From Escherichia coli (GTDB taxonomy: Bacteria > Pseudomonadota > Gammaproteobacteria > Enterobacterales > Enterobacteriaceae): a stretch of 64,000 bases of DNA. The first letter of the stretch is position 1, and each line of letters begins with the position of its first letter. Location of the stretch: the NCBI RefSeq assembly GCF_003019035.1, contig NZ_CP027447.1, one strand, 5' to 3'. Positions 4,595 through 64,000 of the stretch are shown here, piece after piece. The translations under genes and the position numbers were made by a program. The notes under the pieces are model-generated. The model saw only the letters and a program-made list of their open reading frames with translations, did no database searches and was not told where the DNA came from.

Positions 4595-4603
4595 GGAGTC
4601 ACT

Positions 4604-9035: not shown

Positions 9036-9467
9036 ATGACTACATTACGTCAGCCTTACTACGAACTTAGCCCGGCAGTGTATAACGCACTAGTGCAGGC
9101 CAAAACGGCACTGGAAAATAGCACGCTGGATACCACGTTGATGGAGTTAGTTTATTTGCGCGTCTCGCAAATCAACGGCTGCGCATTTTGTCTGGAGATG
9201 CACAGCAAAGCATTGCGCAAATCCGGCGTGCCACAGCACAAACTGGACGCCCTGGCAGGTTGGCGCGTAAGCCATCATTTTGATGAACGCGAGCGGGCGG
9301 CGCTGGCATGGGCGGAATCGGTAACCGAAATTGCCAGAACCCATGCGGAAGACGAGGTTTATCAGCCTTTGCTTGAGCATTTCAGCGCAGCAGAGATCAG
9401 CGACTTAACGTTTGCCATCGGGCTGATGAATTGTTTTAACCGTCTGGCCGTTTCCATGCGGATGTAA
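9036..9467 (+). CDS. carboxymuconolactone decarboxylase (AhpD-like) family protein
   Basis: 143-aa ORF with CAFCLEMH motif typical of the CMD/AhpD core; divergent from the MocR-type regulator. Confidence 0.65.
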   Translation: MTTLRQPYYELSPAVYNALVQAKTALENSTLDTTLMELVYLRVSQINGCAFCLEMHSKALRKSGVPQHKLDALAGWRVSHHFDERERAALAWAESVTEIARTHAEDEVYQPLLEHFSAAEISDLTFAIGLMNCFNRLAVSMRM

Positions 9468-9675
9468 CTTCTTGATGCCGGGTATTCGCCCGGCAAAAAA
9501 ACACAAAATCCCCTACCCCGTTGAGCCATTCATCGGTGGCGTAACCAATCTAAAATTCCCATATCTTGTGTGGTTGAATCTTTTTTCAACTACATCTAGT
9601 ATCTCTGTATCAACAGAGAGACAACCCGACGCGTATCATCGCGCCGTATCTTCATTTTAAACGGAAATACGAATC

Positions 9676-9921
9676 ATGCGCATTACTATTTACACTCGTA
9701 ACGATTGCGTTCAGTGCCACGCCACCAAACGGGCGATGGAAAACCGGGGCTTTGATTTTGAAATGATTAATGTCGATCGCGTTCCTGAAGCGGCAGAAAC
9801 GCTGCGTGCTCAGGGCTTTCGTCAGTTGCCGGTTGTGATTGCAGGCGATCTTAGCTGGTCTGGTTTCCGCCCGGACATGATCAATCGTCTGCATCCAGCG
9901 CCACACGCGGCCAGTGCATGA
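9676..9921 (+). CDS. nrdH: glutaredoxin-like protein NrdH
   Basis: 81 aa with CVQC redox motif; first gene of nrdHIEF. Confidence 0.95.
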
Positions 9922-10328
9922 GCCAGCTCGTCTACTTTTCCAGCAGCTCCGAAAATACGCAGCGTTTTATCGAACGTTTAGGGCTGCCCGCGGTGCGCAT
10001 CCCGCTCAATGAGCGGGAACGGATTCAGGTAGACGAGCCTTACATCCTGATCGTGCCCTCTTACGGCGGCGGCGGTACGGCTGGCGCGGTGCCACGACAG
10101 GTCATTCGCTTTTTAAACGACGAGCATAACCGGGCGTTGCTGCGCGGCGTTATTGCTTCGGGTAATCGCAACTTTGGTGAGGCATATGGCCGCGCCGGAG
10201 ATGTGATTGCCCGGAAATGCGGCGTGCCGTGGCTGTACCGCTTTGAACTCATGGGTACGCAAAGCGATATCGAAAACGTTCGTAAAGGAGTAACCGAATT
10301 TTGGCAACGACAACCGCAGAACGCCTGA
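9918..10328 (+). CDS. nrdI: flavodoxin-like protein NrdI
   Basis: 136 aa; 4-bp overlap with nrdH; operon position. Confidence 0.95.
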
Positions 10329-19731: not shown

Positions 19732-20262
19732 ATGGATAGTTCGTTTACGCCCATTGAACAAATGCTAAAATTTCGCGCCAGCCGCCACGAAGATTTTCCT
19801 TATCAGGAGATCCTTCTGACTCGTCTTTGCATGCACATGCAAAGCAAGCTGCTGGAGAACCGCAATAAAATGCTGAAGGCTCAGGGGATTAACGAGACGT
19901 TGTTTATGGCGTTGATTACGCTGGAGTCTCAGGAAAACCACAGTATTCAGCCTTCTGAATTGAGTTGTGCTCTTGGATCATCCCGTACCAACGCGACGCG
20001 TATTGCCGATGAACTGGAAAAACGCGGTTGGATCGAACGTCGTGAAAGCGATAACGATCGCCGCTGCCTGCATCTGCAATTAACGGAAAAAGGTCACGAG
20101 TTTTTGCGCGAGGTTTTACCACCGCAGCATAACTGCCTGCATCAACTCTGGTCCGCGCTCAGCACAACAGAAAAAGATCAGCTCGAGCAAATCACCCGCA
20201 AATTGCTCTCCCGTCTCGACCAGATGGAACAAGACGGTGTGGTTCTCGAAGCGATGAGCTAA
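19732..20262 (+). CDS. mprA: MarR-family repressor of emrAB
   Basis: 176 aa with MarR-type wHTH; upstream of emrAB. Confidence 0.9.
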
Positions 20263-20388
20263 CGCGTCATCTCGCTCAAAAATCCAGATTTATAAAAGAA
20301 AAAATGACTGGCCAGCATCGCAACATGCTGGCCTTTTTGGCAAGCAGGTCGGCTCAGCCGATGAGTTAAGAAGATCGTGGAGAACAAT

Positions 20389-21561
20389 ATGAGCGCAAAT
20401 GCGGAGACTCAAACCCCGCAGCAACCGGTAAAGAAGAGCGGCAAACGTAAGCGTCTGCTCCTCCTTCTCACCTTGCTCTTTATAATTATTGCCGTAGCGA
20501 TAGGGATTTATTGGTTTTTAGTACTGCGTCATTTCGAAGAAACCGATGACGCATACGTGGCAGGGAATCAGATTCAAATTATGTCTCAGGTGTCTGGCAG
20601 CGTGACGAAAGTCTGGGCCGATAACACCGATTTTGTAAAAGAAGGCGACGTGCTGGTCACTCTCGACCCGACAGATGCTCGCCAGGCGTTTGAAAAAGCC
20701 AAAACTGCACTGGCTTCCAGCGTTCGCCAAACCCACCAGCTGATGATTAACAGCAAACAGTTGCAGGCGAATATTGAGGTGCAAAAAATCGCCCTCGCGA
20801 AAGCACAAAGCGACTACAACCGCCGTGTGCCGCTGGGCAATGCCAACCTGATTGGTCGCGAAGAGCTGCAACACGCCCGTGACGCCGTCACCAGTGCCCA
20901 GGCGCAACTGGACGTCGCTATTCAACAATACAATGCCAATCAGGCGATGATTCTGGGGACGAAACTGGAAGATCAGCCTGCCGTACAACAGGCTGCCACC
21001 GAAGTACGTAACGCCTGGCTGGCGCTGGAGCGTACCCGTATTGTCAGTCCGATGACCGGTTATGTCTCCCGCCGCGCGGTACAGCCTGGGGCGCAAATTA
21101 GCCCAACGACGCCGCTGATGGCGGTCGTTCCAGCCACCAATATGTGGGTGGATGCCAACTTTAAAGAGACGCAGATTGCCAATATGCGTATCGGTCAGCC
21201 GGTCACCATCACCACCGATATTTACGGCGATGATGTGAAATACACCGGAAAAGTGGTTGGTCTGGATATGGGCACAGGTAGCGCGTTCTCACTGCTTCCG
21301 GCGCAAAATGCGACCGGTAACTGGATCAAAGTCGTTCAGCGTCTGCCTGTGCGTATTGAACTGGACCAGAAACAGCTCGAGCAATACCCGCTGCGTATCG
21401 GTTTGTCCACGCTGGTGAGCGTCAATACCACTAACCGTGACGGTCAGGTACTGGCAAATAAAGTACGTTCCACACCGGTCGCGGTAAGCACCGCGCGTGA
21501 AATCAGCCTGGCACCTGTCAATAAACTGATCGACGATATCGTAAAAGCTAACGCTGGCTAA
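20389..21561 (+). CDS. emrA: multidrug efflux membrane fusion protein
   Basis: ORF 20377..21561; start at MSANAETQTPQQP (390 aa); HlyD-type adaptor. Confidence 0.9.
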   Translation: MSANAETQTPQQPVKKSGKRKRLLLLLTLLFIIIAVAIGIYWFLVLRHFEETDDAYVAGNQIQIMSQVSGSVTKVWADNTDFVKEGDVLVTLDPTDARQAFEKAKTALASSVRQTHQLMINSKQLQANIEVQKIALAKAQSDYNRRVPLGNANLIGREELQHARDAVTSAQAQLDVAIQQYNANQAMILGTKLEDQPAVQQAATEVRNAWLALERTRIVSPMTGYVSRRAVQPGAQISPTTPLMAVVPATNMWVDANFKETQIANMRIGQPVTITTDIYGDDVKYTGKVVGLDMGTGSAFSLLPAQNATGNWIKVVQRLPVRIELDQKQLEQYPLRIGLSTLVSVNTTNRDGQVLANKVRSTPVAVSTAREISLAPVNKLIDDIVKANAG

Positions 21562-53091: not shown

Positions 53092-53157
53092 TGCCGGATG
53101 CGGCGTGAACGCCTTATCCGGCCTACAAGGCCCGATAAGCGTTGCGCATCGGGCAAT
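53092..53157. repeat. REP pair (BIME) downstream of ascB
   Basis: GCCGGATGCGGCGTGAACGCCTTATCCGGCCTACA followed by an inverted partner GGCCCGATAAGCGTTGCGCATCGGGCA. Confidence 0.75.
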
Positions 53158-53170
53158 CTGGCGTTTGGCA

Positions 53171-53422
53171 TCAGAGCTGGTTCACCCCATCAAGAACATC
53201 CCCCTTTATCAAGCAACGCTGCGTCAGCGCCAGATCTTCCGATTGCGGGTCGCGCCCGGCGATGGGTTTGAGGACGAGTTTACGGTTGGGGGTATAAGTA
53301 AAACGCGTGAGCGCGGGATAGCTTAACTTGCCAAACCAGCCGTGAACACGCTGCCATTTGGCGTCTTTTACCTGATACAGACTGGTTATCCAGTAACCGG
53401 AATCAAACTGCATATCCAGCAA
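53171..53422 (-). pseudogene. orphan ORF fragment, possibly the 3' remnant of a gene truncated by the adjacent insertion
   Basis: 83-aa ORF with no convincing ribosome-binding site; an in-frame stop lies just upstream of its first ATG; sits between the ascB REP and the prophage-like region. Confidence 0.3.
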
Positions 53423-53636
53423 TTGCGTGTGGCCATTCCTTGATCAGACATGAGATAAATGAAGGGGGATCCGTGAGATAAATAACGAATTGGAGTGGGT
53501 TAACATGGGTTCTGGTGAACAGAACTGAAATTCTTTTTCGTTATACGATAGATAAGTCGGACATTGAAATCATCCTTTCTGGCAACTTAGAATCGAGTTT
53601 GCTGAAACATGACTCGTAACAAAAAGGATGATTCCA

Positions 53637-53798
53637 ATGACTACTCAAAACAATAAGCATGATAGCCTGGATTACTCAGAAAAGCCCAAAAGCAAGCACA
53701 TCGTGACGTTCGAGCGCGATTCCGGTAGAAAAGGAGAATCGTCTTCCTCTGCCAATAAAAACACTATACCGGCAGCTCCTGCTCCGGGGAAAAAATAA
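53637..53798 (+). CDS. hypothetical small hydrophilic protein (53 aa)
   Basis: Hand-translated MTTQNNKHDSLDYSEKPKSKHIVTFERDSGRKGESSSSANKNTIPAAPAPGKK; AAGGA about 10 nt upstream of the ATG; below the ORF-track cutoff. Confidence 0.25.
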   Translation: MTTQNNKHDSLDYSEKPKSKHIVTFERDSGRKGESSSSANKNTIPAAPAPGKK

Positions 53799-53801
53799 AC
53801 A

Positions 53802-54434
53802 TCATTCATCGTTCGTTGCACGAACGCGCCTGATCTCCACTCTGGCAATCTGATCTGCTGGAATATAGGTTGCCAGAGCTCCCCAGTACTTATCAACCAC
53901 GCCTTTATACTCTTCCCATTCGTTACTGCCTGAAGGGCTGCTGTGTGTGACGTAAAGAACCATATCGCCTTTATTCCCCAGGGTAAACGGACCGTTAGGC
54001 CACTCTTCAAAGTTCCCTGGCAGTCGTGACATCATACCGGAACCATCGCGAAGAATCACTCTGACCTCGGTGACGCTGAAGTCTGTTTGATCAAACATTG
54101 CCTGCCATGCTGAGCTGGTATCGTCAGACCATGAAATATCATTATTCCACAGTAATCTGTACATCCATTTGCGACCGTACCTGCGCCACCACGCACCACA
54201 TGTAACAGCACACAGAAGTGCTGGTGGTGTTGCCAGCCAGGCATTCAGACCTGCCCACATAACAGCCTGGTAAGCCATCATTGCTGTCAGGCCAAAAATT
54301 AGCGAAGAAAAAGTCACCTCAATGGGTTTGTGCTGATCCTTCAGCCCCACATTCGCAATAAAATACCCAATATAGCCACTGGTCAGAGTCACCAGTGTTG
54401 CCCATGGCAAATTTAACAACGAAACGTCAAACAT
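53802..54434 (-). CDS. prophage-encoded membrane protein, unknown function (3 predicted TM helices plus about 120-aa soluble domain)
   Basis: ORF 53802..54512; start trimmed to ATG 54434 (MFDVSLLNLPW...), which has an AGGGAG Shine-Dalgarno 6 nt upstream; lies just past the post-mor terminator. Confidence 0.6.
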   Translation of the reverse strand: MFDVSLLNLPWATLVTLTSGYIGYFIANVGLKDQHKPIEVTFSSLIFGLTAMMAYQAVMWAGLNAWLATPPALLCAVTCGAWWRRYGRKWMYRLLWNNDISWSDDTSSAWQAMFDQTDFSVTEVRVILRDGSGMMSRLPGNFEEWPNGPFTLGNKGDMVLYVTHSSPSGSNEWEEYKGVVDKYWGALATYIPADQIARVEIRRVRATNDE

Positions 54435-54471
54435 ATTTTCTCCCTGCATCCTGAATACTACAGAGAGAGCA

Positions 54472-54508
54472 TAAAAAAAGCACGGTAAGGGGTCTACCGT
54501 GCTTTTAT
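54472..54508 (-). terminator. intrinsic terminator after mor (end of the early operon)
   Basis: Minus strand reads GCACGGTA-GACCCCT-TACCGTGC followed by TTTTTTT; A-tract on the other side makes it potentially bidirectional. Confidence 0.8.
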
Positions 54509-54548
54509 ACAATAAGGAGATTTTTGAAAGGACTTTAACAAGCAGGAA

Positions 54549-54947
54549 TTATCTGGATTTGTTAACGTCTCTCGTCTCTTCTGGCAGATCTTCATCAAAC
54601 AACCTGCCCTGCATCCGATCCAGTTCTTCTTTTCTGACCCGCTTAACCACGCTGTAGACCCACTGAAGCGAAACACCAAACTTGCGGGCCAGTTCATGGT
54701 GGTTGCGTCCGTTAAACTCCCGGAAGATTTCCCGGTCGCGCTGACTGACCTTCCATACCATGCCCATCGGGAAATAAACGTTTTGCCCGCCCCAGACCTG
54801 CATCATGCGGTTCGCGACGGCCTGACCAATCTGGTCGGCAATTGCGGGCTCAATATCAATAATCTCGCGAACGGTCTCAGAGGTATGCTGTGCCAGTTCC
54901 ACCAGGAGTTCCGGCCCTTTACTTCGAAACTGATTCAGGTCGCTCAT
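54549..54947 (-). CDS. mor: Mor-family middle-operon transcription activator
   Basis: 132-aa ORF; C-terminal HTH (HHELARKFGVSLQWVYSVV) and position after GemA as in Mu; family assigned from memory. Confidence 0.75.
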   Translation of the reverse strand: MSDLNQFRSKGPELLVELAQHTSETVREIIDIEPAIADQIGQAVANRMMQVWGGQNVYFPMGMVWKVSQRDREIFREFNGRNHHELARKFGVSLQWVYSVVKRVRKEELDRMQGRLFDEDLPEETRDVNKSR

Positions 54948-55371
54948 GTTTTACTCCCGCAGCTCTGCGCTGCCACTTCTTCAGTTTCTCAATAACACTG
55001 CTTGCCTGTTCTGTATTGAGCCAGCGCAGGGCGCTGATGCCCGTTTCCCGCTTGATCCACCGCGCTAATGCATTTTCTGAACGGTCACGAACAATGCCGG
55101 CAGCAGCCATTTCAAGCCATAGCGCACGGATTTTCCTGGACTGCGGATGGTTATCCAGCGGTAAACCGGAGCTGGCTTTTCCGGCAGGCTTAACGCGAAA
55201 GCCTTTCCTTTTCATGGATTCCAGCACGCAGTTTAGTTGTGTGGTATCCATTCCTTTGGTTGAGGCTTTACCGGTCAGCCCCTGTAACATCTGGCGGTAG
55301 GTGTCTTCATCCATACCCAGTTCATTACGGGCAATATGAATGAGCTGGATAAGACGTTGTTTAGTCATCAT
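54919..55371 (-). CDS. gemA: GemA (Mu gp16)-like protein
   Basis: ORF 54919..55410; likely start at MMTKQRLIQLIHIARNELGMDEDTYRQ; resembles the Mu GemA/DUF1018 family by recall; overlaps mor start. Confidence 0.65.
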   Translation of the reverse strand: MMTKQRLIQLIHIARNELGMDEDTYRQMLQGLTGKASTKGMDTTQLNCVLESMKRKGFRVKPAGKASSGLPLDNHPQSRKIRALWLEMAAAGIVRDRSENALARWIKRETGISALRWLNTEQASSVIEKLKKWQRRAAGVKHERPESVSK

Positions 55372-55576
55372 CGTTGCTCCTTTTACCTGCGCCACCGATA
55401 TAATCGACATATAAAGGAAGCGCCACAGGCCAGCACAGGAACATCACCGACCAGCTAATCCAGTAGCCGGCACCACTGTAACGTGAATAAAACCCTGAAC
55501 GGCGGTGCAGTTCAGCAGTACACCAACCGACAAAACAATACCAGAACAGGGCACATACAACAGATTCAGCCGTCAT
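55361..55576 (-). CDS. hypothetical small membrane protein
   Basis: ORF 55361..55732; plausible start at internal MTAESVVCALFWYCFVGW; two hydrophobic segments; start uncertain. Confidence 0.35.
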   Translation of the reverse strand: MTAESVVCALFWYCFVGWCTAELHRRSGFYSRYSGAGYWISWSVMFLCWPVALPLYVDYIGGAGKRSNDDD

Positions 55577-55796
55577 TCTGAATATCCCCCCAACTGATAT
55601 GAATATTACGGGCAGCAATGACAGGGTCGTTATCCCACCATGCACCTGACATGTATTTTTCAACCTGTTCGCGTCCGGCAATAACACCAATTGTGATCCC
55701 CGGCCTGACGTTCTTAAAAAAGGCGCGGGCAAAAAGGTATCTGGCAGATATTCGGCAGGCTTTTAATTTCCGGCTGTTACCTGATAGCGTAATCAT
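55566..55796 (-). CDS. hypothetical protein (76 aa), translationally coupled to the upstream gene
   Basis: ATG overlaps the stop of the upstream 227-aa gene (ATGA arrangement). Confidence 0.4.
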   Translation of the reverse strand: MITLSGNSRKLKACRISARYLFARAFFKNVRPGITIGVIAGREQVEKYMSGAWWDNDPVIAARNIHISWGDIQNDG

Positions 55797-56476
55797 CTGG
55801 CCTCCAGTTTCTGTTGTTCCTGCCCACTGACCGGGCGGTGCAGTCTGACGTTCTGCCCTTCACGAAACCCCGCATAGCGCGAGGCGTCACCATTGCGGCT
55901 TCTTCCCGGTTTACGCGCCCTGGTGGTTTGCGTTTGCGGGTATTTATGTTCCAGCCACTGCTGCATCAGTTCACGTTCGTCATCAGTCAGGGCGAAGGAC
56001 TGTATTTCACTGATAACGGCCAGCACCCAGCCTTCAGCAAACTGGTCTCCACGGCTGGTGCGGGTGGCGGTTTTTATTCTTTTGTTCTGTGTGCTGATAT
56101 ACTGCTGACGCGCCTTTTTCAGCTGGCGGGCCAGCACTTCCCAAGTGTACGCAGCCAGTGCGGCCCGTTCCCGGTTGCCGTAGAATCCCACACCCGGATA
56201 TGTGCCGGGGTGAATGATGGAGTTAACACCAAATGCCTCGCGGATGATGTTCATCAGGCCCAACATATAGCGCGGTGGACGGAGGCTGCCTGTCGGCCAG
56301 TAGTGGCTGATGGTTTCATCAATATCACTCATGGCAATGTCGGAATGTGTGATGCCGTGAACATCCATCAGTTTACGGGCACGGCGCAGTGCCAGAGCGG
56401 CCTCGTGCGGGTTGCCGGATGCAGCCAGCGCCAGCAGTTTTTTCAGTTTCTCAATGTGTTTATCCAGGTCTGTCAT
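55793..56476 (-). CDS. conserved phage protein (DUF2786-like N-terminus)
   Basis: 227-aa ORF; N-terminus KLKKLLALAASGNPHEAALALRRARKLM resembles the DUF2786 signature as I recall it; 4-bp overlap with the upstream gene. Confidence 0.5.
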   Translation of the reverse strand: MTDLDKHIEKLKKLLALAASGNPHEAALALRRARKLMDVHGITHSDIAMSDIDETISHYWPTGSLRPPRYMLGLMNIIREAFGVNSIIHPGTYPGVGFYGNRERAALAAYTWEVLARQLKKARQQYISTQNKRIKTATRTSRGDQFAEGWVLAVISEIQSFALTDDERELMQQWLEHKYPQTQTTRARKPGRSRNGDASRYAGFREGQNVRLHRPVSGQEQQKLEAR

Positions 56477-56778
56477 TGTTCGGTATCTCCGGTGTACATG
56501 ACGCCCAGCCGTGCGGCAAGGCGTTCCAGTTTTTTCTGTTTGTGGAAGTCAATCAGCCGGCCCATCCCCTGAAGACGCAACTGCTCTGTCATGATTTCCA
56601 CGTCTGCCAGCTCTGCCGCGAGGTCACTTTCGCTGCCCTGTCCGTTCAGGTTGCGGGCAGCACTGGCCGCCAGTTCGGCGGCCTCTTCTGTCAGTTTCAG
56701 GGCCTGTGCATCCGGCCCGAAACGCTGCAGAGCCAGACGATAGAGGGCAGTGCGTGTGAGTATGGTGTTCCGTGTCAT
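56473..56778 (-). CDS. hypothetical phage protein (101 aa)
   Basis: ORF in the tightly packed early operon, same strand. Confidence 0.45.
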   Translation of the reverse strand: MTRNTILTRTALYRLALQRFGPDAQALKLTEEAAELAASAARNLNGQGSESDLAAELADVEIMTEQLRLQGMGRLIDFHKQKKLERLAARLGVMYTGDTEQ

Positions 56779-56787
56779 GCCGCGCCC

Positions 56788-57060
56788 TCAGTGCTTCCGG
56801 TCGACGGTGATGTGCAGGCCGCCTTCTGCAGTGGTTTCCATCCGGTACGGCACCTCATGCTCTGCCGTGTGGGTGAGTGTGTTCACCAGTACCTGCAGGG
56901 CAGCCTCCTTTCCGTTGGTCGTCACAATGGCCTGAGCGGCCATGCTGATTAGCGCTGTCAGGACGTGCTTCACATCGGTGAGGTCGCGGCATTCACACTC
57001 GTTGACATAGTGTTCAACAAGGGTTCGGGTGCGCTGTCGTGCTTCCTGTGGGGTAATCAT
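56788..57060 (-). CDS. hypothetical phage protein (90 aa)
   Basis: ORF in the early operon; 4-bp overlap with the upstream zinc-ribbon ORF. Confidence 0.45.
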   Translation of the reverse strand: MITPQEARQRTRTLVEHYVNECECRDLTDVKHVLTALISMAAQAIVTTNGKEAALQVLVNTLTHTAEHEVPYRMETTAEGGLHITVDRKH

Positions 57061-57251
57061 TGCGAGTCCTCCCTGTCAGGGCGGGAGAATTCCATGACGG
57101 GCACGTCCGCTGAAAAATGTTGGCTGCAGTACGGACAGACCAGGGTGACGCGCACTGCAGGTACGTGGTACTTACCGGACATCACGGCGATGGCGCTGTG
57201 AAAACGCAGGGCTGTTATATCCCTCTCGCACTGAATACATTTAAATATCAT
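57057..57251 (-). CDS. small zinc-ribbon protein (64 aa)
   Basis: Two Cys pairs, CIQC and CPYC, about 40 residues apart. Confidence 0.45.
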   Translation of the reverse strand: MIFKCIQCERDITALRFHSAIAVMSGKYHVPAVRVTLVCPYCSQHFSADVPVMEFSRPDREDSQ

Positions 57252-57348
57252 GATTTAATTCTCCTCTGTTTCCGGCGTGCAGAAGCCCACGGCGCTGACG
57301 CCGGAATAAAAAAGAAAATGTTTTTATTAAATAATTAACGTGGTGTGT

Positions 57349-57879
57349 TTACTGCACATCCTGCTCAAAAGGAATTATTGAAAAATCCTCAATATCACTT
57401 TTTATGGTAATACCGGGAATATTTTTCACGGCCTCTTTTTCATTCAGAATGGCATCTTTATTTATTTCCTCTTTTACACGAATAAAGCGCTCAAGCCCCA
57501 GACGTCTCAGTAGTTCAATAACATTATCCGCTCCACGGATACTGACTGATGGCGGACGGTTTCGCCACTGCACCTCGCCGGTGGTGAGGTTAGCGAACTT
57601 CACCTTCCCGTTGCCGGTCAGTTCATCACGGTGTGCCTCACACCATGTCTGAATACCGGACTGCAGTTCGGCCATGCGTTTTTTCAGGCTCTCGGTGAGC
57701 GGGGCATAACGTGCGGTGATATCGCCAATGGCGTCATTCATTTCTGTTTCAGCCCTGACCAGTTCACGTTGTGCGTCACCGAGCAGTCTGATTCCCTCAA
57801 TGACCTCTTCGCGTGTCCCCGGTACCCAGAGTGCCGCTGCGGACTTGATACGTTTTGCCCCTTTTGTACTTTTTGCCAT
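57349..57879 (-). CDS. gam: Gam-like host-nuclease inhibitor (Mu Gam family, DNA-end binding)
   Basis: 176 aa; strong similarity to Mu Gam as I recall it (...KRIKSAAA...ETEMNDAI...WCEA.RDELT..GKVK.ANL.TG.V.WR.RPPSVSIRG...RLGL.RFIR.K.EINK.AIL...GITVKS.IEDFSIIPFEQ). Confidence 0.8.
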   Translation of the reverse strand: MAKSTKGAKRIKSAAALWVPGTREEVIEGIRLLGDAQRELVRAETEMNDAIGDITARYAPLTESLKKRMAELQSGIQTWCEAHRDELTGNGKVKFANLTTGEVQWRNRPPSVSIRGADNVIELLRRLGLERFIRVKEEINKDAILNEKEAVKNIPGITIKSDIEDFSIIPFEQDVQ

Positions 57880-57906
57880 ATCTTATGATTTCTCCGGTTG
57901 TGCTGA

Positions 57907-58176
57907 TTACCACAAAGATTCCGGCCACACGACGCGACAGCCGTGCAGTTCGAAAACGCCCTGACGGAAATATCCCCTGTGGTCATGTCCGGTATACAGA
58001 TAACAGGCCTTTCCCTGCTCAAGCATGCGCATGCAATGCGCACTTCGGGAAACGCGGATGACAGGTTTGTTACCCCTGATGGTGATGCTTTGTACATCCG
58101 TGTTCGTCGCCTTAAGCGCCATAATGGCTGACTGCACTTTGCTGATTTGCTGGTTGATACCTGTGGTGGATTTCAT
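57907..58176 (-). CDS. hypothetical phage protein (89 aa)
   Basis: ORF between the partner ATPase gene and gam. Confidence 0.45.
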   Translation of the reverse strand: MKSTTGINQQISKVQSAIMALKATNTDVQSITIRGNKPVIRVSRSAHCMRMLEQGKACYLYTGHDHRGYFRQGVFELHGCRVVWPESLW

Positions 58177-58178
58177 TA

Positions 58179-59372
58179 TTAAACCCCTTTGACAACGTCA
58201 GCGTTGACCTGTGGAACCCCGATTTCAGCGGCCAGATTCATGGCGGCTATCACCAGGTTACTGACGGCCAGCGGATACAACAGGCTGACCATATTTTTAC
58301 GATGACTTCCCGGATTGCTCAGGCGGGCACGTATGGCATCCACTGCACTGGCGTCCATAATGTCCGTCAGTTGTTTACCTGCCCGTTGCAGTTTGAACGT
58401 CAGAAACTCTTCAAGGTTATTGTCCAGAGGCAGAAGTTCGACCACCTCACAGCGCTGAACGACTTCACGGACTTCCATATTGCGTTCAGACAGTTTTGTC
58501 GCCAGTTCCGGCTGGCCAATCAGCACGATGGACAGCAGTTTTTTGAAACCGGACTCCAGCTCAAAAAAGCGTTTGAGGTGTTTCAGTGTCGGAATGGGCA
58601 GACTGTGGGCCTCCTCAATCACCAGAACGTGGCTGAACCCCGCCTGGCTGCTGTCTTTCAGGACGCGATGCAACTGGCGAAAGCGGGCGTCCTGACTGCG
58701 TCTGATGCTTTCCAGTGGTGCGATGGTACTGATAATGGCTTCGGCAATAGCTGCTGCCTTCAGGGTTTTCCCTTTCACATCGTTGTCTTCCATAGCGATG
58801 ATGTATGGCTCGATAACAATTACCGGCGCATTCTCGCGGTTGATACGTTCAGTCAGGTCGCGGCGCAGCGTGGATTTACCCGCACCGGACTCACCGATGA
58901 CGGCCATAAACCCACCATGACGGGCTGTCTGGTACAACGCCTCACGCACGTAGCGAATGTCCGGGGTGGTGAACACATCATCAGAACCCTGCATGGCTTC
59001 GTCGGCGAACGGGTCACGGAAAAGACCAAACGCTTTTTTGGTTGCTGGAAATAACACCTGTTTTTTGAGTAACATATTCTCTTCCTCACTGAGGCTCGTT
59101 TTATCTGTGGTACCCGCTGTACGGGGCGTGGCCGCGCCCTGTACAGCATCAAAACTCTTCGCTGTATCAATCCCCTGACTTTCCAGCCAGGACGCAAGAC
59201 GCCGGCGCACTTCTCCGGGGCTGGTGCGGGGCCACGCGTTATGATTCACAATCTGGGCCAGCGTGGCCTCAGAAACATCGACAGCTCTCGCCACCACCGC
59301 CTGTGGAATACGGGCCTCTTTCAGTTGCTGCTTCAGTACCAGCATGTTTCCCTCCTCAGTTGCCGTTAACAA
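58179..59372 (-). CDS. transposition ATPase (MuB/TniB-like AAA+ target-DNA activator)
   Basis: 397 aa; Walker A GESGAGKST; immediately downstream of and overlapping the transposase gene. Confidence 0.75.
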   Translation of the reverse strand: MLTATEEGNMLVLKQQLKEARIPQAVVARAVDVSEATLAQIVNHNAWPRTSPGEVRRRLASWLESQGIDTAKSFDAVQGAATPRTAGTTDKTSLSEEENMLLKKQVLFPATKKAFGLFRDPFADEAMQGSDDVFTTPDIRYVREALYQTARHGGFMAVIGESGAGKSTLRRDLTERINRENAPVIVIEPYIIAMEDNDVKGKTLKAAAIAEAIISTIAPLESIRRSQDARFRQLHRVLKDSSQAGFSHVLVIEEAHSLPIPTLKHLKRFFELESGFKKLLSIVLIGQPELATKLSERNMEVREVVQRCEVVELLPLDNNLEEFLTFKLQRAGKQLTDIMDASAVDAIRARLSNPGSHRKNMVSLLYPLAVSNLVIAAMNLAAEIGVPQVNADVVKGV

Positions 59373-61125
59373 TGCTGATAACGCTGCTGCGGGCCGGCGT
59401 GGTCAGCGTGGCCATGACTTCATCCAGTGCGGCTTCCGGTACGCCGTCCGGGTACTGTGCCGTTAACTGGCGGTAATGTTCCGGCGTCCAGGTAAGGCCG
59501 TCGGCGCTGAACTTATCGCGCAGGGCTTTCGCGGCCTCCACATGAGTCATGGGACGTTGTTCAGTGCGCGGTCTGCGTACATCAGAGGCCTGACCGCGCT
59601 TCGGTATACAGGCCGGAAGTGTGGCGTCATCAATATGTTTATACGGGTCAAGCCGCCCGCCGAACGGCAGCGCCTTCGCCTTGCGTGCGGCAGCTGCATC
59701 TGCGGCGTTGTCTGTACCGGTGACCAGCGCTTCGGTTTCTTTTGCCGCCGTCTGTGCCGGTGTTTCCGGCAGGGCTTTGTAACTTTCGCCAAATACCGCC
59801 GCGCCTTCAGCAAAGCCAAACTCGTTCTTTCTGACCTCTTCGACCAGGAAGAACGTCTCGTGGCCGTCCTCACCGGTCAGAACCACCTGTGCCACATCGC
59901 TGCGCCATGGGTTACGGGTAATCATCAGTTTTTCACCAACCAGTACGCCCGGTACCGTTGATACGTCAAATTCAGTGCCCCGGAACGAGACACGAAGTTT
60001 TGGCGTGACTTTGCGGAGTTCTGGTGTCGTCACAGCCAGTTCACGGCATACCTCAACGGAAGGCGCTTTTTTCAGCTGCTCAGCAGTAATCTTCAGCCAG
60101 ATATCCGTGCGGGTTTTACCGTGGCGGCTGTGAACAGCTGTTGCGTTAAAGTGGCTACGCCATTTCGCGGCCAGCGCGTTGAGTTCTTCCAGACTGTGAA
60201 CCGGCCGGAACTTCAGACCCGGCTCCAGCTTGCGTTCGATAATGTCACGCGCCTTTTCCACCTGTCCGGTGGCGCGGGCGTTATGCGGCTTGTGCGCTAT
60301 CAGGTCGATGCCCAGTGAGCGGCACATGTTTTTCGTCATACCCGCGGTGTTTGCCGAGCCGGGGTCGAGATAGAGTATTTTCGGCACGCCGTGCAGCACG
60401 TCTGCGCCGCCACGCTCCTGCATGGCGTTGATAAGCACAGAACACAGGTTCTCACCGGATTCCGCACCCGTCACATACTCAACGTAAATCCAGCCGCTGG
60501 CATGGTCGGTAATCTCGTAACTCCACACGCGGTCACTGGCGATACGGGCAAGGTTAGCGGGCTTGTTCTTGTAGAACTTCGCGCTGTCCATCACCTGCAG
60601 CCCTTTGTGTCCATTGCTCAGGTAGTAAAGCGTGCAGAGAGAGGCATCAATCTGCCAGACATGATTGGGATGCAGACTGGCCACTTCGGTATGCGGCGCA
60701 GGGGCATCCAGTTGTTCCGGGTGCAGGCCATAGTTACGCAGGGCACGGCTGATAGCATCTTCGGACAACGGGAAAAACTCACCGGTGGTTTCATCTGTTC
60801 TGCCTGCGGAGATAAAGCCGTTAGCCCGCAGGGTTTCCACTGCATCTGCGATGGAATAGAGACGCTTACCGTTCTTGCGGGTGGCCTCACGTAGTGTGGC
60901 AGATATCAGCGCGGCTTCGTCGCGGGTCAGGGCGCTGCGCCCGGCATCGGCGCGTTTTTTGCGTTTATCAGTCACAGAGACCTCCTTCAGCCTGCGCAGC
61001 AGAGTGGCGCGGGACATGCCAAGTTCAGCACAGGCGGCGTCATATATTGCACCACGTTTACCATGCCCCGCGTCACGTGCCGCGCGGGCGACATAAACCA
61101 GTCGTTCAGTCAGGGCAGCATTCAT
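59356..61125 (-). CDS. DDE transposase (Mu A-like, rve/integrase-core type)
   Basis: 589 aa; N-terminal HTH region, central DDE-type core (HVWQIDASL..., LYLDPGSANTAG..., distal E), C-terminal extension; paired with the AAA+ ATPase gene. Confidence 0.8.
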   Translation of the reverse strand: MNAALTERLVYVARAARDAGHGKRGAIYDAACAELGMSRATLLRRLKEVSVTDKRKKRADAGRSALTRDEAALISATLREATRKNGKRLYSIADAVETLRANGFISAGRTDETTGEFFPLSEDAISRALRNYGLHPEQLDAPAPHTEVASLHPNHVWQIDASLCTLYYLSNGHKGLQVMDSAKFYKNKPANLARIASDRVWSYEITDHASGWIYVEYVTGAESGENLCSVLINAMQERGGADVLHGVPKILYLDPGSANTAGMTKNMCRSLGIDLIAHKPHNARATGQVEKARDIIERKLEPGLKFRPVHSLEELNALAAKWRSHFNATAVHSRHGKTRTDIWLKITAEQLKKAPSVEVCRELAVTTPELRKVTPKLRVSFRGTEFDVSTVPGVLVGEKLMITRNPWRSDVAQVVLTGEDGHETFFLVEEVRKNEFGFAEGAAVFGESYKALPETPAQTAAKETEALVTGTDNAADAAAARKAKALPFGGRLDPYKHIDDATLPACIPKRGQASDVRRPRTEQRPMTHVEAAKALRDKFSADGLTWTPEHYRQLTAQYPDGVPEAALDEVMATLTTPARSSVISIVNGN

Positions 61126-61128
61126 TGG

Positions 61129-62043
61129 TTATGCCTCCAGCCCGTTAATCTGTGGCGTCGGCTCAGTCAGCCATGAAGGCGCGACATCGCCTGTTGGCTC
61201 GTCCGGCAGGTCAAATGTGGAGCGCAGGCTACGCGCTGTGCTTTCCAGTTGACAGACCAGGCCTGCCATGAAGTCTCTGGGGGTATCAATCATGTTTTCA
61301 GCACAATATGCGCACAGCGTCTCAAAAGCGCTGGACAGTCGAACGGCGATAGCAGATTCCGCCTCAACCGCTAATGCTGTCACTTCCGCCCGCAGCTTCT
61401 TAACCTCTTCATCAGGCTCAGGCGGCTGAATACGGGATTTCTTCTCCAGTTTTGTGGAAAGCGAGTCGATTTTTTCGTTTTTGTCGGCCAGCACGCGCTG
61501 TTGTGCTGCGTTGGTTTCGCGGGCTTCGCGCAGGGCCTGACGCAATTCACGTACTGACATGCGATCAACGTCGTCAAGCGTCAGGCCGGCAACTGTGCCG
61601 CCGTCGGCCAATTCATCAAGTTCTTCATTATCCAGAACCATCAGGTCGTACAGTTTGGCTTTCCCCAAAACGCTCAACGTTGAGCGTTTTGTTGGCTCAT
61701 CACCTTCTCCCAAAAACTTCATACTGGCTTGCATCATGCGGCGAGCAACTTGTGGTGCAAGTCCGAGTTCATTTTCTAAAATGTTTGTAAAATCACCGTG
61801 TGGCTCATTTTCTTTTAAGATGATCAGCCGTTTACCCGCTTCCAGCATAGATTCAGCACTCTGCGCCATATAAAAACGTGCTTCGTGAACAATGCGATCA
61901 CGTTCATAAGGCAGTCCATCACCAAACTGCTGCATAATTTCCATGCGATGCTGTGTCATAGCGTTCAAATTGACATTGATGTTATCTGACAGCGGAACCT
62001 CAACATTCAGTTCAGTGTTAACGGGTGATTTGGTGCGTCCCAT
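61129..62043 (-). CDS. hypothetical phage protein (304 aa), predicted coiled-coil-rich
   Basis: ORF immediately upstream of the transposase gene; charged heptad-like central region. Confidence 0.45.
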   Translation of the reverse strand: MGRTKSPVNTELNVEVPLSDNINVNLNAMTQHRMEIMQQFGDGLPYERDRIVHEARFYMAQSAESMLEAGKRLIILKENEPHGDFTNILENELGLAPQVARRMMQASMKFLGEGDEPTKRSTLSVLGKAKLYDLMVLDNEELDELADGGTVAGLTLDDVDRMSVRELRQALREARETNAAQQRVLADKNEKIDSLSTKLEKKSRIQPPEPDEEVKKLRAEVTALAVEAESAIAVRLSSAFETLCAYCAENMIDTPRDFMAGLVCQLESTARSLRSTFDLPDEPTGDVAPSWLTEPTPQINGLEA

Positions 62044-62053
62044 TGATTACTCC

Positions 62054-62362
62054 TTACAAACGACTACCTGAAATAACTCGTTGGTTGATTTCGTTAATAC
62101 GATCCTGTGCACGCGCCATCTCGTGACTGTGAGCCATGGCGATCTGTAGTAACTGGATTCCCGGTGCGAAACGTCCGTTCTCTAATTTCATGGCCAGTCC
62201 CTCTTCAATAAGGGTATTAAGTGCTCGATTGATATTCGCCGGGGACTCCCCCAGGGCTGATGCCAGTTCACCGTTAGAAACACCGTTCAGAGCATGACCG
62301 CGTAGAGCTTTGAGTACACGTAGGATGCGGCTCCCGGAACTGGAAATATTTACTTTACTCAT
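62054..62362 (-). CDS. small winged-HTH protein (IclR-like DNA-binding domain only)
   Basis: ORF 62054..62425; likely start at MSKVNISSSGSRILRVLKALRGH...; start uncertain. Confidence 0.45.
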   Translation of the reverse strand: MSKVNISSSGSRILRVLKALRGHALNGVSNGELASALGESPANINRALNTLIEEGLAMKLENGRFAPGIQLLQIAMAHSHEMARAQDRINEINQRVISGSRL

Positions 62363-62414
62363 GTCACATTTCCATTTTTGCAATATGTGATAACCTGTTG
62401 CATATGTGGAAAAT

Positions 62415-62603
62415 TTATGCCGCATTTGACGTGGGTTTTAATCCCAGTTTTACGGCAATTTCATGGGCTTTGCCGTAACGAGCTTTGGTCTGTCCATTGA
62501 GAACACGATAGACCTCATTGCGGCTGTAGCCGTGTTCTTCGGCCCAGCGGGTAAACGTGATACCACGCTGACGGAAGAGATTTTTAACTTGTTCGGAAGT
62601 CAT
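62415..62603 (-). CDS. ner: Ner-like DNA-binding protein (Mu Ner/Nlp family)
   Basis: 62 aa; aligns with the Ner/Nlp HTH pattern (G.t..rWaee.G.s...vyrvL.G....kG..IA..LG.kP); first gene of the early operon, divergent from the repressor. Confidence 0.65.
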   Translation of the reverse strand: MTSEQVKNLFRQRGITFTRWAEEHGYSRNEVYRVLNGQTKARYGKAHEIAVKLGLKPTSNAA

Positions 62604-62640
62604 TGTTGTCTCCTTTGTTGATGCAATGATGTTTGTTTTA

Positions 62641-62695
62641 TATGTGATAGATTATGTGAACTATTGTTCTCATTGTCAATGAGGTTTATGTGAAT
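62641..62695. promoter_or_regulatory. candidate operator repeats in the repressor/ner divergent intergenic
   Basis: TATGTGA occurs three times (62641, 62653, 62687), the last two as TTATGTGAA; the third contains the repressor GTG start. Confidence 0.35.
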
Positions 62696-63115
62696 TTTGA
62701 TTCTCTTTGCGCGTCGCGGTTCAAAGCTGAGCGTTCGCGGTTATCACTCAAGCAGGCTGAAGTAGCAGCCCTTTGTGGCGTTTCAAGAGAAATGTGGGGG
62801 AAATATGAACGAGGGGTTGCTGTTCCCGGAGGTGAGTTACTTGCAGCCTTTGCAAGAATTGGGGCCAATGTACAGTTCATTCTTACCGGGGAGTCATCAG
62901 GTATAACTTTATCACGTGATGAAATGGAGTTACTGCAGCACTACCGGCAAGCACCGTTACAGGTCAAAGGTTCAGTTTTGTCGGCTTTGACTACTGGCTC
63001 CTCCAGAGAACGGGCGGAACAGGTTATTCATGGAGATGTTCTGGGGAATGTTATCAAAGGTAACGTAACCATAGGAACAGGTGGAATAATGAACAAAAAT
63101 ACCAAGAGAAGATGA
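62690..63115 (+). CDS. XRE-family (Cro/C1-type HTH) phage repressor candidate
   Basis: 141 aa, GTG start; N-terminal HTH (LSLKQAEVAALCGVSREMWGKYERG); divergent from the ner-transposase operon. Confidence 0.7.
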   Translation: MNFDSLCASRFKAERSRLSLKQAEVAALCGVSREMWGKYERGVAVPGGELLAAFARIGANVQFILTGESSGITLSRDEMELLQHYRQAPLQVKGSVLSALTTGSSRERAEQVIHGDVLGNVIKGNVTIGTGGIMNKNTKRR

Positions 63116-64000
63116 GTAAAGAGAAGCAAACAGTTAACGGGGATGTGGGTAACGTTGTCAGCGGTGATGTTACCATTCATAACTATTCTGCTGACATACT
63201 TCCTTCTGCCCAGCAACCAATTTCGTTGCTGCAAAAACGCGATTTACACAGATTGATGGATGAATTGGTTGATCTGGGGGAAAGTAAGCGCGAGCTATGG
63301 ATGACGATCCACACGAAACTTAATACCAAAACAGTTAATGAAATGACTGCGGCTGATTATCATGGTGCGGTTGAGATCCTTCAGAGATATGCACAACAGA
63401 TCCAGAATATGAAGGACTGTAATCTTCTGGTCAGCAAAATAATGGCGCTTACTGACCCTGGGTATCGTCTTGACCGTGACAGATACTGTCTGAAGCATTT
63501 CGGTACAACCCATCTTAAAGGCCTGGACAAAGAGCAGTTGCAGGCTGTGTTTGGTTATTTTGATGATCTGCTGAATATTCGTGATGAGAGTAAAACTCTA
63601 TCACCTCCATCGGAAAGCGGTGCAAAATCAGTCGCAACTGTACCAACCAGAAGCCGGAAGCCTCATGTAGTAGTGTTGGGGGGAGCGTTAGTTCTTGTAG
63701 CAATATTTTTCGTGGGAATGATTGTGTTCGCTGGTAAATGGGGAAATGCTAAAGCAGTAGCTTCTACTGAAACCAGCGTTTTTAACATTAAAACCAACGA
63801 CAAAATAATAGAAGATTCCATCCCCGCACTGCGCAGCATGTTTCCAGGATTAAATAAGTACTCAGATGATTTCCATTCGGTTTCAAGCTACAAGCAAAAA
63901 ACGGGCTGGCATACCCTTAAATTTACTGTATCAGCAAAGGCATCCGTCCCCGAAAATTATAGTGTTAAGGGCAAGGTTTGTTACATTAACATAAACCCTG
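63112..64000 (+). CDS. hypothetical single-pass membrane protein, 3' partial (runs off window end)
   Basis: Hand-translated open frame from ATG 63112 with no stop before 64000 (absent from ORF track because incomplete); ATG overlaps repressor stop (ATGA); TM helix VVVLGGALVLVAIFFVGMIVFAG. Confidence 0.6.
   Translation, partial: MSKEKQTVNGDVGNVVSGDVTIHNYSADILPSAQQPISLLQKRDLHRLMDELVDLGESKRELWMTIHTKLNTKTVNEMTAADYHGAVEILQRYAQQIQNMKDCNLLVSKIMALTDPGYRLDRDRYCLKHFGTTHLKGLDKEQLQAVFGYFDDLLNIRDESKTLSPPSESGAKSVATVPTRSRKPHVVVLGGALVLVAIFFVGMIVFAGKWGNAKAVASTETSVFNIKTNDKIIEDSIPALRSMFPGLNKYSDDFHSVSSYKQKTGWHTLKFTVSAKASVPENYSVKGKVCYININP

What the first reader, a model, noticed from the sequence alone, without database searches (positions are those of the whole stretch)
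53430..64000. Mu-like transposable prophage that appears to consist of the early region only
The minus strand carries a Mu-type early operon (Ner-like, wHTH protein, 304-aa protein, 589-aa DDE transposase, 397-aa AAA+ ATPase, Gam homolog, small ORFs, GemA-like, Mor-like), but about 1.4 kb past mor the sequence is host DNA (ascB REP). No late activator, lysis, head or tail genes are present on this side. The transposase and ATPase are shorter or different from canonical MuA/MuB, and two extra genes sit between ner and the transposase, so this is a distinct lineage. It may be a deletion remnant or a defective or satellite-like element that keeps repressor, transposition, Gam and Mor functions.
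Basis: partly seen in the sequence, partly recalled or inferred. Interest (0 to 1): 0.6.

Follow-up and report, generated by a model that had tools for sequence, protein, structure and literature searches.

The report
BcepMu-type prophage cut by window edge
This is the early-gene arm of an ordinary, widely distributed BcepMu-type transposable prophage of E. coli; its lysis, head and tail genes lie on the other side of the repressor, just beyond the end of the window, so it is not an "early-region-only" element.

Summary
The element ends at window 53441 with a TG terminus and two transposase-site repeats. The "early region only" reading is an artefact of the window edge.

The element belongs to the BcepMu lineage, not the Mu lineage. 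In BcepMu the early operon runs leftward from a central repressor/operator and ends with Mor next to the genome end. Lysis, head and tail genes run rightward from the repressor. Eight window proteins match BcepMu gp01, 02, 08, 09, 10, 12, 16 and 17 in the same order (34-68% identity), and the termini align in register with BcepMu's.

Copies 100% identical to window 53441-64000 sit at other chromosomal sites and continue into holin, lytic transglycosylase, terminase and portal genes. A 98.8% identical copy in E. coli A24 is a complete 38.5-kb prophage with 6-bp target duplications.

Two public assemblies carry this exact ascB/hycI junction. Each holds about 33.9 kb of contiguous DNA beyond it.

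Verdict: a known kind of prophage, near-identical to public sequences. Interest is low.

The parts
53171..53440 (-). 3' remnant of the host gene into which the phage inserted. In E. coli LF82 it is a 251-aa hypothetical protein (WP_005000912.1) lying between ascB and hycI.
   Evidence: The host match to LF82 and others is 100% and stops at 53441. The intact gene is seen in L002.
53435..53440 (.). Predicted left copy of the 6-bp target-site duplication, ATTCCT.
   Evidence: 6-bp duplications were read in three complete relatives: GCAAAT, CGTAGC, GCACAT. A public contig from the hycI side ends exactly at ...AGGAAT. The right copy itself lies outside the window.
53441..53483 (+). Mor-proximal terminus of the prophage. 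It starts with 5'-TG and has two GAGATAAAT putative transposase-binding sites (53452-53460 and 53475-53483), 23 bp apart.
   Evidence: repeat D5; these are the only two copies of the motif in 64 kb; ungapped alignment with the other end of relatives and with both BcepMu ends, with invariant T1 G2 A3, GATA at 14-17 and GATA at 37-40.
53637..53798 (+). 53-aa accessory ORF of unknown function (phrog_15726).
53802..54434 (-). 210-aa predicted membrane protein. It is a variable accessory gene at the genome end, present in A24 and ST131-2822 but absent from IAI39, NCTC9022 and PhiKM.
   Evidence: No Pfam or PADLOC match.
54476..54506 (-). Intrinsic-terminator-like hairpin (13-bp stem plus T run) just downstream of mor. 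It is the probable end of the early transcript.
   Evidence: (I3).
54549..54947 (-). Mor/C-family transcription activator, the last gene of the early operon. 56% identical to BcepMu gp01.
   Evidence: PF08765.
54919..55368 (-). GemA / Mu gp16-family protein. 44% identical to BcepMu gp02.
   Evidence: PF06252.
55361..55796 (-). Two small early ORFs of 71 aa and 76 aa, function unknown.
55793..56476 (-). 227-aa DUF2786/DUF7168 protein.
56473..56778 (-). 101-aa MazG-like nucleoside triphosphate pyrophosphohydrolase.
   Evidence: phrog_2245; annotation.
56788..57251 (-). Two small early ORFs of 90 aa and 64 aa, function unknown.
57349..57879 (-). Gam, a Mu Gam-like DNA-end-binding host-nuclease inhibitor.
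   Evidence: PF07352.
57907..58176 (-). 89-aa early ORF (phrog_2041), function unknown.
58179..59345 (-). Transposition ATPase of the AAA_22/ExeA type. 59% identical to BcepMu gp08. It is the functional counterpart of MuB.
59356..61125 (-). 589-aa DDE transposase with an rve core. 68% identical to BcepMu gp09 and 97.6% to Escherichia phage PhiKM.
61129..62043 (-). 304-aa DUF3102 protein. 42% identical to BcepMu gp10.
62054..62362 (-). 102-aa winged-HTH regulator. 34% identical to BcepMu gp12.
62415..62603 (-). 62-aa HTH protein of the BcepMu gp16 family. It is the first gene of the early operon, in the position that Ner occupies in Mu.
   Evidence: TIGR04111 scores 94.4 bits against a cut-off of 34..
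62604..62689 (.). 86-bp divergent control region.
- Candidate early promoter on the minus strand: -35 TTGACA at 62679-62674 and -10 CATAAT at 62656-62651.
- An 18-bp (near-)palindrome at 62655-62672 lies in the promoter spacer.
- A second, similar site lies at 62689-62706.
   Evidence: (D1). Function is inferred.
62690..63115 (+). 141-aa XRE/cI-type repressor with a GTG start preceded by GAGG. 39% identical to BcepMu gp17.
63112..64000 (+). 5' 889 nt of a 328-aa membrane-anchored protein gene. It overlaps the repressor stop codon and runs off the window. It is the first gene of the rightward arm and sits where BcepMu gp18 sits.
   Evidence: (phrog_10002).

Best explanation
Window 53441-64000 is the early (regulation/transposition) arm of a BcepMu-type temperate transposable myophage. 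It sits in a hypothetical gene between ascB and hycI.

Layout. Genes diverge from a central control region.
- The XRE-type repressor (62690-63115) and the genes after it read rightward. Beyond the window they continue into lysis, Mu-like head and P2-like tail genes.
- The early operon reads leftward: gp16-family HTH, wHTH, DUF3102, rve transposase, AAA_22 ATPase, Gam and accessory genes, GemA, Mor. It ends at a terminator next to the TG terminus.

Proposed mechanism.
- In the lysogen the repressor occupies palindromic operators that overlap the early promoter (inferred).
- On induction the transposase binds the paired GAGATAAAT-type sites at both ends. Together with the ATPase it carries out replicative transposition, leaving 6-bp target duplications. 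The duplications and many insertion sites were observed in relatives. The chemistry is inferred from BcepMu and Mu.
- Gam protects DNA ends.
- Mor acts in trans to switch on the rightward late genes.

The apparent lack of late genes arises because the window stops 1.3 kb into the rightward arm.
For: 1. Synteny and homology with BcepMu. Eight proteins in the same order and orientation show 34-68% identity. The BcepMu GenBank map has Mor as gene 1, 365 nt from the left end, and late genes after gp17. The published description agrees (PMC2771037).
2. TIGR04111 (BcepMu_gp16 family) is matched above its curated cut-off.
3. The termini align without gaps with both ends of BcepMu. TG..CA ends and 23-bp terminal repeats are described for this family (PMC2628397; PMC2920897).
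4. The E. coli A24 copy is 98.8% identical with no gaps over 10,560 nt. It is a complete 38,489-bp prophage with lysis, terminase, portal, capsid, sheath, tube, tape measure, baseplate, fibre and invertase genes.
5. Full-length relatives sit at three further sites.
6. 6-bp duplications were read at three prophages.
7. L008 and L011 are 100.000% identical to window 53441-64000 but lie at other loci. They continue into holin, SLT, TerS, TerL and portal genes.
8. The same ascB-side junction occurs in contigs of 48,035 and 34,292 bp. They are 99.995% and 100% identical to the window and carry about 33.9 kb beyond the junction.
9. A hycI-side contig ends exactly at the predicted right junction.
10. 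In complete E. coli genomes the late arm (300 genomes at >=80% coverage) is at least as common as the early arm (213 genomes).
Against: - The DNA to the right of 64000 in the source genome itself was not seen.
- The content of the unread ~24 kb of the two same-junction contigs is inferred from their length only.
- The predicted right-junction ORF was found on only one short contig, and that contig stops at the junction.
- Operator, promoter and Mor-target assignments are sequence inferences.
- No induction or transposition data exist for this strain.
Confidence: 0.93

Rival explanations
1. Deletion remnant. In this genome only the early arm survives and the late arm has been deleted somewhere to the right of 64000.
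For: - The window ends before any late gene, so this cannot be excluded directly.
- Decayed or partial relatives do exist. IAI39 has internal stops in four late-arm genes. A right-end-only remnant is seen in L031.
Against: - Everything visible is colinear with full-length copies, right up to the last base of the window.
- All early genes are intact.
- Same-junction contigs extend about 33.9 kb past the junction.
- A population-level search gives no sign of an early-only class.
Confidence: 0.04
2. A full-length but cryptic prophage. Both arms are present, but mutations in the unseen late arm make it non-inducible or unable to form particles.
For: - The IAI39 copy carries internal stop codons in four late-arm genes (small terminase, a small hypothetical, GPW/gp25 and others).
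- A24 has a frameshifted baseplate gene.
Against: - The visible arm is 100% identical to copies at other chromosomal sites.
- The exact transposase occurs with at least 10 different host flanks. This points to very recent mobility of this sub-lineage.
Confidence: 0.1
3. A satellite-like or autonomous non-viral transposon that keeps only repressor, transposition, Gam and Mor functions and depends on a helper phage.
For: None beyond the absence of late genes inside the window.
Against: - No second terminus occurs anywhere between 53484 and 64000. The GMGATAAAT motif appears only at 53452 and 53475.
- The rightward arm is identical to that of complete phages.
Confidence: 0.01

Closest known systems
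Burkholderia phage BcepMu (NC_005882) and phiE255; genus Bcepmuvirus / 'BcepMu-like viruses'
   Same: - The same two-cluster architecture. The early genes lie on the bottom strand and end with Mor at the left end. The control region is gp16/gp17. Lysis, Mu-like head and P2-like tail genes follow on the top strand.
- Homologous Mor, GemA, ATPase, transposase, DUF3102, wHTH, gp16 and repressor proteins (34-68% identity).
- A Tn552/rve-type transposase and an ExeA-like ATPase.
- TG termini, with two transposase sites in the same register.
- Variable genes at the genome ends.
   Different: - No nucleotide-level similarity to BcepMu (no blastn hit), and a different host (E. coli).
- The middle of the early operon differs. 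Here it holds Gam, DUF2786, a MazG-like protein and small ORFs. BcepMu has SSB, HU and DUF3164 there.
- The E. coli relatives carry a Gin-like invertase and an invertible tail-fibre segment. BcepMu is reported to lack these (PMC2771037).
- The accessory genes are different.
Escherichia phage PhiKM (PQ738613, filed by GenBank under Bcepmuvirus) and the prophages of E. coli A24, IAI39, ST131 strain 2822 and NCTC9022
   Same: - Essentially the same phage. The transposase is 97.6% identical to PhiKM's.
- 98-98.8% nucleotide identity over the early arm to the prophages, with the same gene order.
- The same termini and a 6-bp target duplication.
   Different: - The insertion site (ascB/hycI intergenic gene) is not present in any of the 5,426 complete E. 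coli genomes searched.
- The 210-aa and 53-aa end cassette is present here, in A24 and in ST131-2822, but absent from IAI39, NCTC9022 and PhiKM.
- PhiKM has a different immunity region.
Escherichia phage Mu (Muvirus)
   Same: - A temperate phage that integrates and replicates by transposition.
- Gam, GemA and Mor homologues.
- Mu-type TerS, portal, F and G head genes in relatives.
- TG..CA ends.
   Different: - The transposase has only an rve core and no MuA-specific domains. The ATPase is AAA_22/ExeA-like, not MuB.
- Phage Mu was not among the 69 tblastn hits of the transposase.
- The early operon points toward the nearest end instead of toward the late genes.
- The target duplication is 6 bp, against 5 bp for Mu (the Mu value is established knowledge).
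- Relatives have P2-like tails.
Pseudomonas phage B3 and B3-like transposable siphophages
   Same: - Homologous transposase (56% identity over the full length).
- The transposase is also on the bottom strand near the left end in the B3 records.
   Different: - B3-like phages are siphoviruses with different late genes.
- Identity is much lower.
- Not examined further here.

Membership tests
BcepMu-like transposable phages (Bcepmuvirus sensu lato) | rve/Tn552-type transposase homologous to BcepMu gp09, next to an ExeA-like ATPase homologous to gp08 | tested here: met
   68% and 59% identity over the full length, and the genes are adjacent. Pfam rve and AAA_22.
BcepMu-like transposable phages (Bcepmuvirus sensu lato) | Two divergent gene clusters. 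The bottom-strand early cluster ends with Mor at the genome end. The lysogeny control region (gp16/gp17) lies at the interface. | tested here: met
   Window gene order compared with the BcepMu map and PMC2771037. The gp16 family TIGR04111 is matched above its cut-off. The repressor is 39% identical to gp17.
BcepMu-like transposable phages (Bcepmuvirus sensu lato) | TG...CA termini with about 23-bp imperfect repeats recognised by the transposase | tested here: met
   The TG end and two sites 23 bp apart are in the window. The CA end is seen only in relatives. The alignment is in register with the BcepMu ends.
BcepMu-like transposable phages (Bcepmuvirus sensu lato) | Rightward arm with a lysis cassette, Mu-like head genes and P2-like tail genes | tested here: inconclusive
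   This arm is not inside the window. It is present in 100%-identical copies as far as the portal gene, and complete in the 98.8% relative A24. Same-junction contigs are long enough to hold it.
BcepMu-like transposable phages (Bcepmuvirus sensu lato) | Genus-level nucleotide identity to BcepMu (an ICTV-style criterion, recalled from my own knowledge) | tested here: not met
   blastn of the window arm against NC_005882 gave no hit. So membership holds at the level of the BcepMu-like group. Strict same-genus membership is not shown, although GenBank files PhiKM under Bcepmuvirus.
Mu-like phages sensu stricto (Muvirus: MuA/MuB) | MuA-family transposase and MuB ATPase | tested here: not met
   Pfam finds only rve in the transposase and AAA_22/AAA_16 in the ATPase. 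No Mu record appears among the tblastn hits.
Mu-like phages sensu stricto (Muvirus: MuA/MuB) | Repressor at the left end, an early operon transcribed toward the late genes, and a 5-bp target duplication | tested here: not met
   The early operon is transcribed toward the nearest end. Relatives have 6-bp duplications.
Defective / early-arm-only remnant or phage satellite | A second element boundary, or host DNA, shortly after the repressor region, with no structural genes | tested here: inconclusive
   No boundary occurs up to 64000, and the sequence is colinear with full-length copies. Same-junction contigs extend about 33.9 kb. The source genome beyond 64000 could not be read.

The most novel reading that the evidence does not exclude
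The two accessory cassettes are uncharacterised superinfection-exclusion or anti-phage defence (lysogenic-conversion) genes carried at the variable positions of BcepMu-type phages. One cassette is the 210-aa three-TM protein plus the 53-aa ORF between mor and the terminus. The other is the 328-aa membrane-anchored protein whose start overlaps the repressor stop. Their positions suggest expression in the lysogen, but this was not tested. Neither cassette matches Pfam or PADLOC.
Probability: 0.25. Interest if true: 0.35.

Novelty: already known. Interest (0 to 1): 0.1.

Why it matters
It matters little beyond correct annotation. The case shows that absence of late genes downstream of mor does not indicate a defective element in BcepMu-type prophages, because their early arm points outward.

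Some practical value remains:
- The exact end (53441), the 6-bp duplication and the terminal sites allow clean delimitation of these prophages in E. coli genomes.
- Identical copies at many chromosomal sites suggest this sub-lineage is currently mobile. It inactivates host genes where it lands: here a hypothetical gene next to hycI, elsewhere mdfA, hycE and lom.

Tried and rejected
- Same junction in complete genomes. I searched 5,426 complete E. coli genomes for this junction and found none. Only the host half or the phage half matches.
- Right junction at this site. I built the predicted chimeric ORF for the hycI side. The 164-aa version is not on record. The 170-aa version was found only on a 1,487-bp contig that stops at the junction.
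- Invertase look-up. I looked up the invertase at the far end hoping to see a hycI flank. The protein is in 27,240 blocks and none of the 10 places shown was this site.
- Accessory proteins. PADLOC and Pfam gave nothing for them.
- Terminal motif count. The motif occurs 2 times against 1.4 expected, so the count alone is not above chance. Its significance rests on position and register.
- Possible repressor nonsense mutation. I considered whether the A>T change at 62657 is a nonsense mutation in the repressor, given that RefSeq starts the gene at ATG 62654. I rejected this for three reasons. All 10 loci with the identical transposase, at different sites, carry the T. The GTG at 62690 has a GAGG Shine-Dalgarno sequence. 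It also gives a protein of BcepMu gp17's length.
- Mu membership was rejected.


Full report
**Observation**

A divergent HTH gene lies at 62690-63115 on the plus strand. A further plus-strand ORF starts at 63112 and runs off the window.

The homology assignments hold.
- PHROGs names the 589-aa protein a transposase and the next protein a DNA transposition protein. It also identifies a Mu Gam-like protein and a late transcriptional activator.
- Pfam finds an rve integrase core in the transposase and AAA_22/AAA_16 in the ATPase.
- Precomputed Pfam hits on identical proteins give Phage_Mu_Gam, GemA, Mor, DUF2786/DUF7168 and DUF3102.

**Where the element ends**

Megablast against 5,426 complete E. 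coli genomes shows that similarity to other copies of the element begins at window 53440/53441. Similarity to empty host sites stops at 53441.

In E. coli LF82 the empty site lies inside a 756-bp hypothetical gene between ascB and hycI. Window 53171-53440 is therefore the 3' remnant of that gene, and the REP after ascB lies just to its left.

The element starts TGATCAGACATGAGATAAATGAAGGGGGATCCGTGAGATAAATAACG. The 10-mer TGAGATAAAT occurs twice, 23 bp apart. GMGATAAAT occurs nowhere else in the 64-kb window.

**What kind of element it is**

The transposase is 97.6% identical to that of Escherichia phage PhiKM, which GenBank files under Bcepmuvirus. It is 68-69% identical to BcepMu and phiE255, and 56% to Pseudomonas phage B3. 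Phage Mu is not among the 69 hits.

Eight window proteins match BcepMu proteins in the same order and orientation:

| Window protein | BcepMu protein | Identity |
|---|---|---|
| Mor | gp01 | 56% |
| GemA | gp02 | 44% |
| ATPase | gp08 | 59% |
| Transposase | gp09 | 68% |
| DUF3102 protein | gp10 | 42% |
| wHTH protein | gp12 | 34% |
| 62-aa HTH protein | gp16 | 45% |
| Repressor | gp17 | 39% |

The 62-aa 'Ner-like' protein exceeds the curated cut-off of NCBIfam TIGR04111, 'BcepMu gp16 family'.

The BcepMu GenBank record places Mor as gene 1, 365 nt from the left end. Genes 1-16 are on the bottom strand, the repressor gp17 is on the top strand, and holin, endolysin, Rz, terminase, portal, head and P2-like tail genes follow. 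[quoted passage not shown] TG...CA ends and 23-bp imperfect terminal repeats are also described for this family (PMC2628397; PMC2920897).

An ungapped alignment was made of the window terminus, both ends of two E. coli relatives and both ends of BcepMu. T1 G2 A3, G12, GATA at 14-17, T20, G33, G35, GATA at 37-40 and T43 are invariant.

So host DNA about 1.1 kb past mor is the normal layout of this lineage. It is not a sign of truncation.

**Where the late genes are**

E. coli A24 carries a copy that aligns with window 53441-64000 without a single gap (126 mismatches, 98.8% identity). That copy is a complete 38,489-bp prophage inserted in mdfA.

To the right of the repressor A24 has the 328-aa gene and then:
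- accessory genes, holin, SLT transglycosylase and spanin-like genes
- DUF3486 (TerS), TerL, the DUF935 portal, Mu F-like and G-like genes
- protease, capsid, sheath, tube and tape measure
- a P2-like baseplate, tail fibres and a Gin-like recombinase

Full-length relatives also sit in hycE (NCTC9022), inside another prophage (ST131 strain 2822) and in lom of a lambdoid prophage (IAI39).

Both junctions could be read in three of them. They show 6-bp target duplications: GCAAAT, CGTAGC and GCACAT. The other end reads ...GCATTTATCGCGCGGCGCATCA, the inverted counterpart of the window's terminus.

In the complete-genome collection the late arm is found at >=80% coverage in 300 genomes and the early arm in 213. 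There is no visible class of early-only elements.

**Evidence for this sub-lineage and this insertion**

The exact 589-aa transposase occurs in 334 blocks of the assembly collection. The 10 places shown have 10 different host flanks. Nine of them continue past the repressor into holin, SLT, Mu-gp27-like TerS and TerL, and eight of these reach the Mu-type portal. The tenth (L017) sits on a contig that starts about 1.3 kb past the 328-aa gene, before any late gene could be seen. Two of the ten loci (L008, L011) are 100.000% identical to window 53441-64000 over all 10,560 nt.

The truncated host ORF next to the junction led to contigs with this very insertion:
- L019, from a 34,292-bp Logan contig, is 100% identical to window 53099-63413.
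- L018, from the 48,035-bp contig AASYSS010000021.1 of GCA_012647285.1, is 99.995% identical to window 43171-63413.

Both contigs carry about 33.9 kb of DNA beyond the junction. On the A24 map that is where the tail-fibre/invertible region starts. Several other draft contigs of this phage also break about 33.9-34.5 kb from the Mor-proximal end (my calculation from the ranges).

From the hycI side, a contig encoding hycH, hycI and the 5' part of the disrupted gene ends exactly at ...AGGAAT. That is the predicted right junction for a 6-bp duplication ATTCCT.

I could not read the remaining ~24 kb of the same-junction contigs, nor the source genome beyond 64000. Completeness at this site is therefore strongly indicated, not directly shown.

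**Mechanism (shown and inferred)**

Shown:
- the gene content and order
- the terminus with paired sites
- in relatives, the 6-bp duplications, the many insertion sites and the complete late arm

Inferred from the BcepMu/Mu paradigm:
- The repressor (GTG 62690, preceded by GAGG; 141 aa against 138 aa for BcepMu gp17) binds the 18-bp near-palindrome at 62655-62672.
- That palindrome lies in the spacer of a strong promoter-like site on the minus strand: TTGACA, 17 nt, CATAAT, 11 of 12 matches. A related site lies at 62689-62706.
- Derepression gives a leftward early transcript ending at the hairpin at 54476-54506.
- The rve transposase and the AAA_22 ATPase carry out replicative transposition.
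- Gam protects DNA ends.
- Mor activates the rightward late genes in trans.

**Comparison and novelty**

The element works like Mu, but it is not a member of the MuA/MuB family:
- There are no Mu-specific domains and no Mu hit.
- The early arm has the opposite orientation.
- The target duplication is 6 bp rather than 5 bp.

It is a member of the BcepMu-like group by transposition module, architecture, control region and termini. It has no nucleotide similarity to BcepMu itself.

Compared with BcepMu, the middle of the early operon differs. Here it holds Gam, DUF2786 and a MazG-like protein. BcepMu has SSB, HU and DUF3164. The E. coli relatives also carry a tail-fibre invertase that BcepMu lacks (PMC2771037).

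Near-identical sequences are already public and annotated. Bcepmuvirus prophages have been reported in E. coli ST131 (bioRxiv 10.1101/2022.05.07.487787) and among induced gut phages infecting Pseudomonadota (PMC12629997). The finding is therefore an already known kind of element, truncated by the window.

**Verdict**

The 'transposable phage of a non-MuA lineage' part is right. The 'early region only, remnant or satellite' part is not supported.
- Interest is 0.1.

Noticed in passing
window 62657 (within 62655-62672): An A>T difference relative to all 124 complete E. coli genomes that carry this control region. It breaks the perfect 18-bp palindrome TGAGAACTATTGTTCTCA in the early-promoter spacer. 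It also puts a TGA directly after the ATG that RefSeq uses as the repressor start. All 10 loci with the identical transposase, at different insertion sites, carry the T. So it marks a mobile sub-lineage. It also argues that the real repressor start is GTG 62690.
   Followed up: partly
window 53637-54434: A variable end cassette between mor and the terminus: a 53-aa ORF (+) and a 210-aa three-TM protein (-). A terminator-like hairpin (54476-54506) separates it from mor. It is present in A24 and ST131-2822 but absent from IAI39, NCTC9022 and PhiKM. It has no Pfam or PADLOC match. It may be a lysogenic-conversion or exclusion gene.
   Followed up: partly
window 63112-64000 (continues beyond the window): A 328-aa protein gene whose start overlaps the repressor stop (ATGA), so it is probably co-transcribed with the repressor in the lysogen. 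It has a central TM segment and only a weak Flk_N hit. It sits where BcepMu gp18 'membrane protein' sits, but shows no detectable similarity to it.
   Followed up: partly
window 53171-53440; L002 3932-4687: The insertion inactivates a conserved 251-aa hypothetical gene with a signal-peptide-like N-terminus, located between ascB and hycI. A related prophage in NCTC9022 sits only about 4 kb away, in hycE.
   Followed up: partly
6 bp left of the Mor-proximal terminus in the window and in L001, L003, L005-L017: Among 16 insertion sites, the first base of the 6-bp target is G in 11 and the third base is always A or T (T in 12). This hints at a weak target preference. The sample is small and the pattern was not tested statistically.
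   Followed up: no
L031 (GCA_024768715.1), 1-10573: At the aroA-side site where many genomes carry a full relative, this genome keeps only a tail-fibre fragment plus the invertase. These abut a P4-like integrase, a reverse transcriptase (RVT_1) and a SLATT_5 protein. It looks like a satellite or defence island that replaced most of the prophage.
   Followed up: no
L003 (PhiKM, PQ738613) 20200-20740: The 'partial genome' record of phage PhiKM joins the tail-fibre gene to the Mor-proximal terminus through a short segment annotated 'Fe2+ ABC transporter permease protein 2'. This suggests a permuted assembly that includes non-phage or flanking DNA.
   Followed up: no
L008, L011, L013, L018, L019 contig ranges: Draft-assembly contigs of this phage repeatedly break about 33.9-34.5 kb from the Mor-proximal end. 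On the A24 map this is the start of the tail-fibre/invertible segment. This may be why such prophages look incomplete in draft genomes.
   Followed up: no
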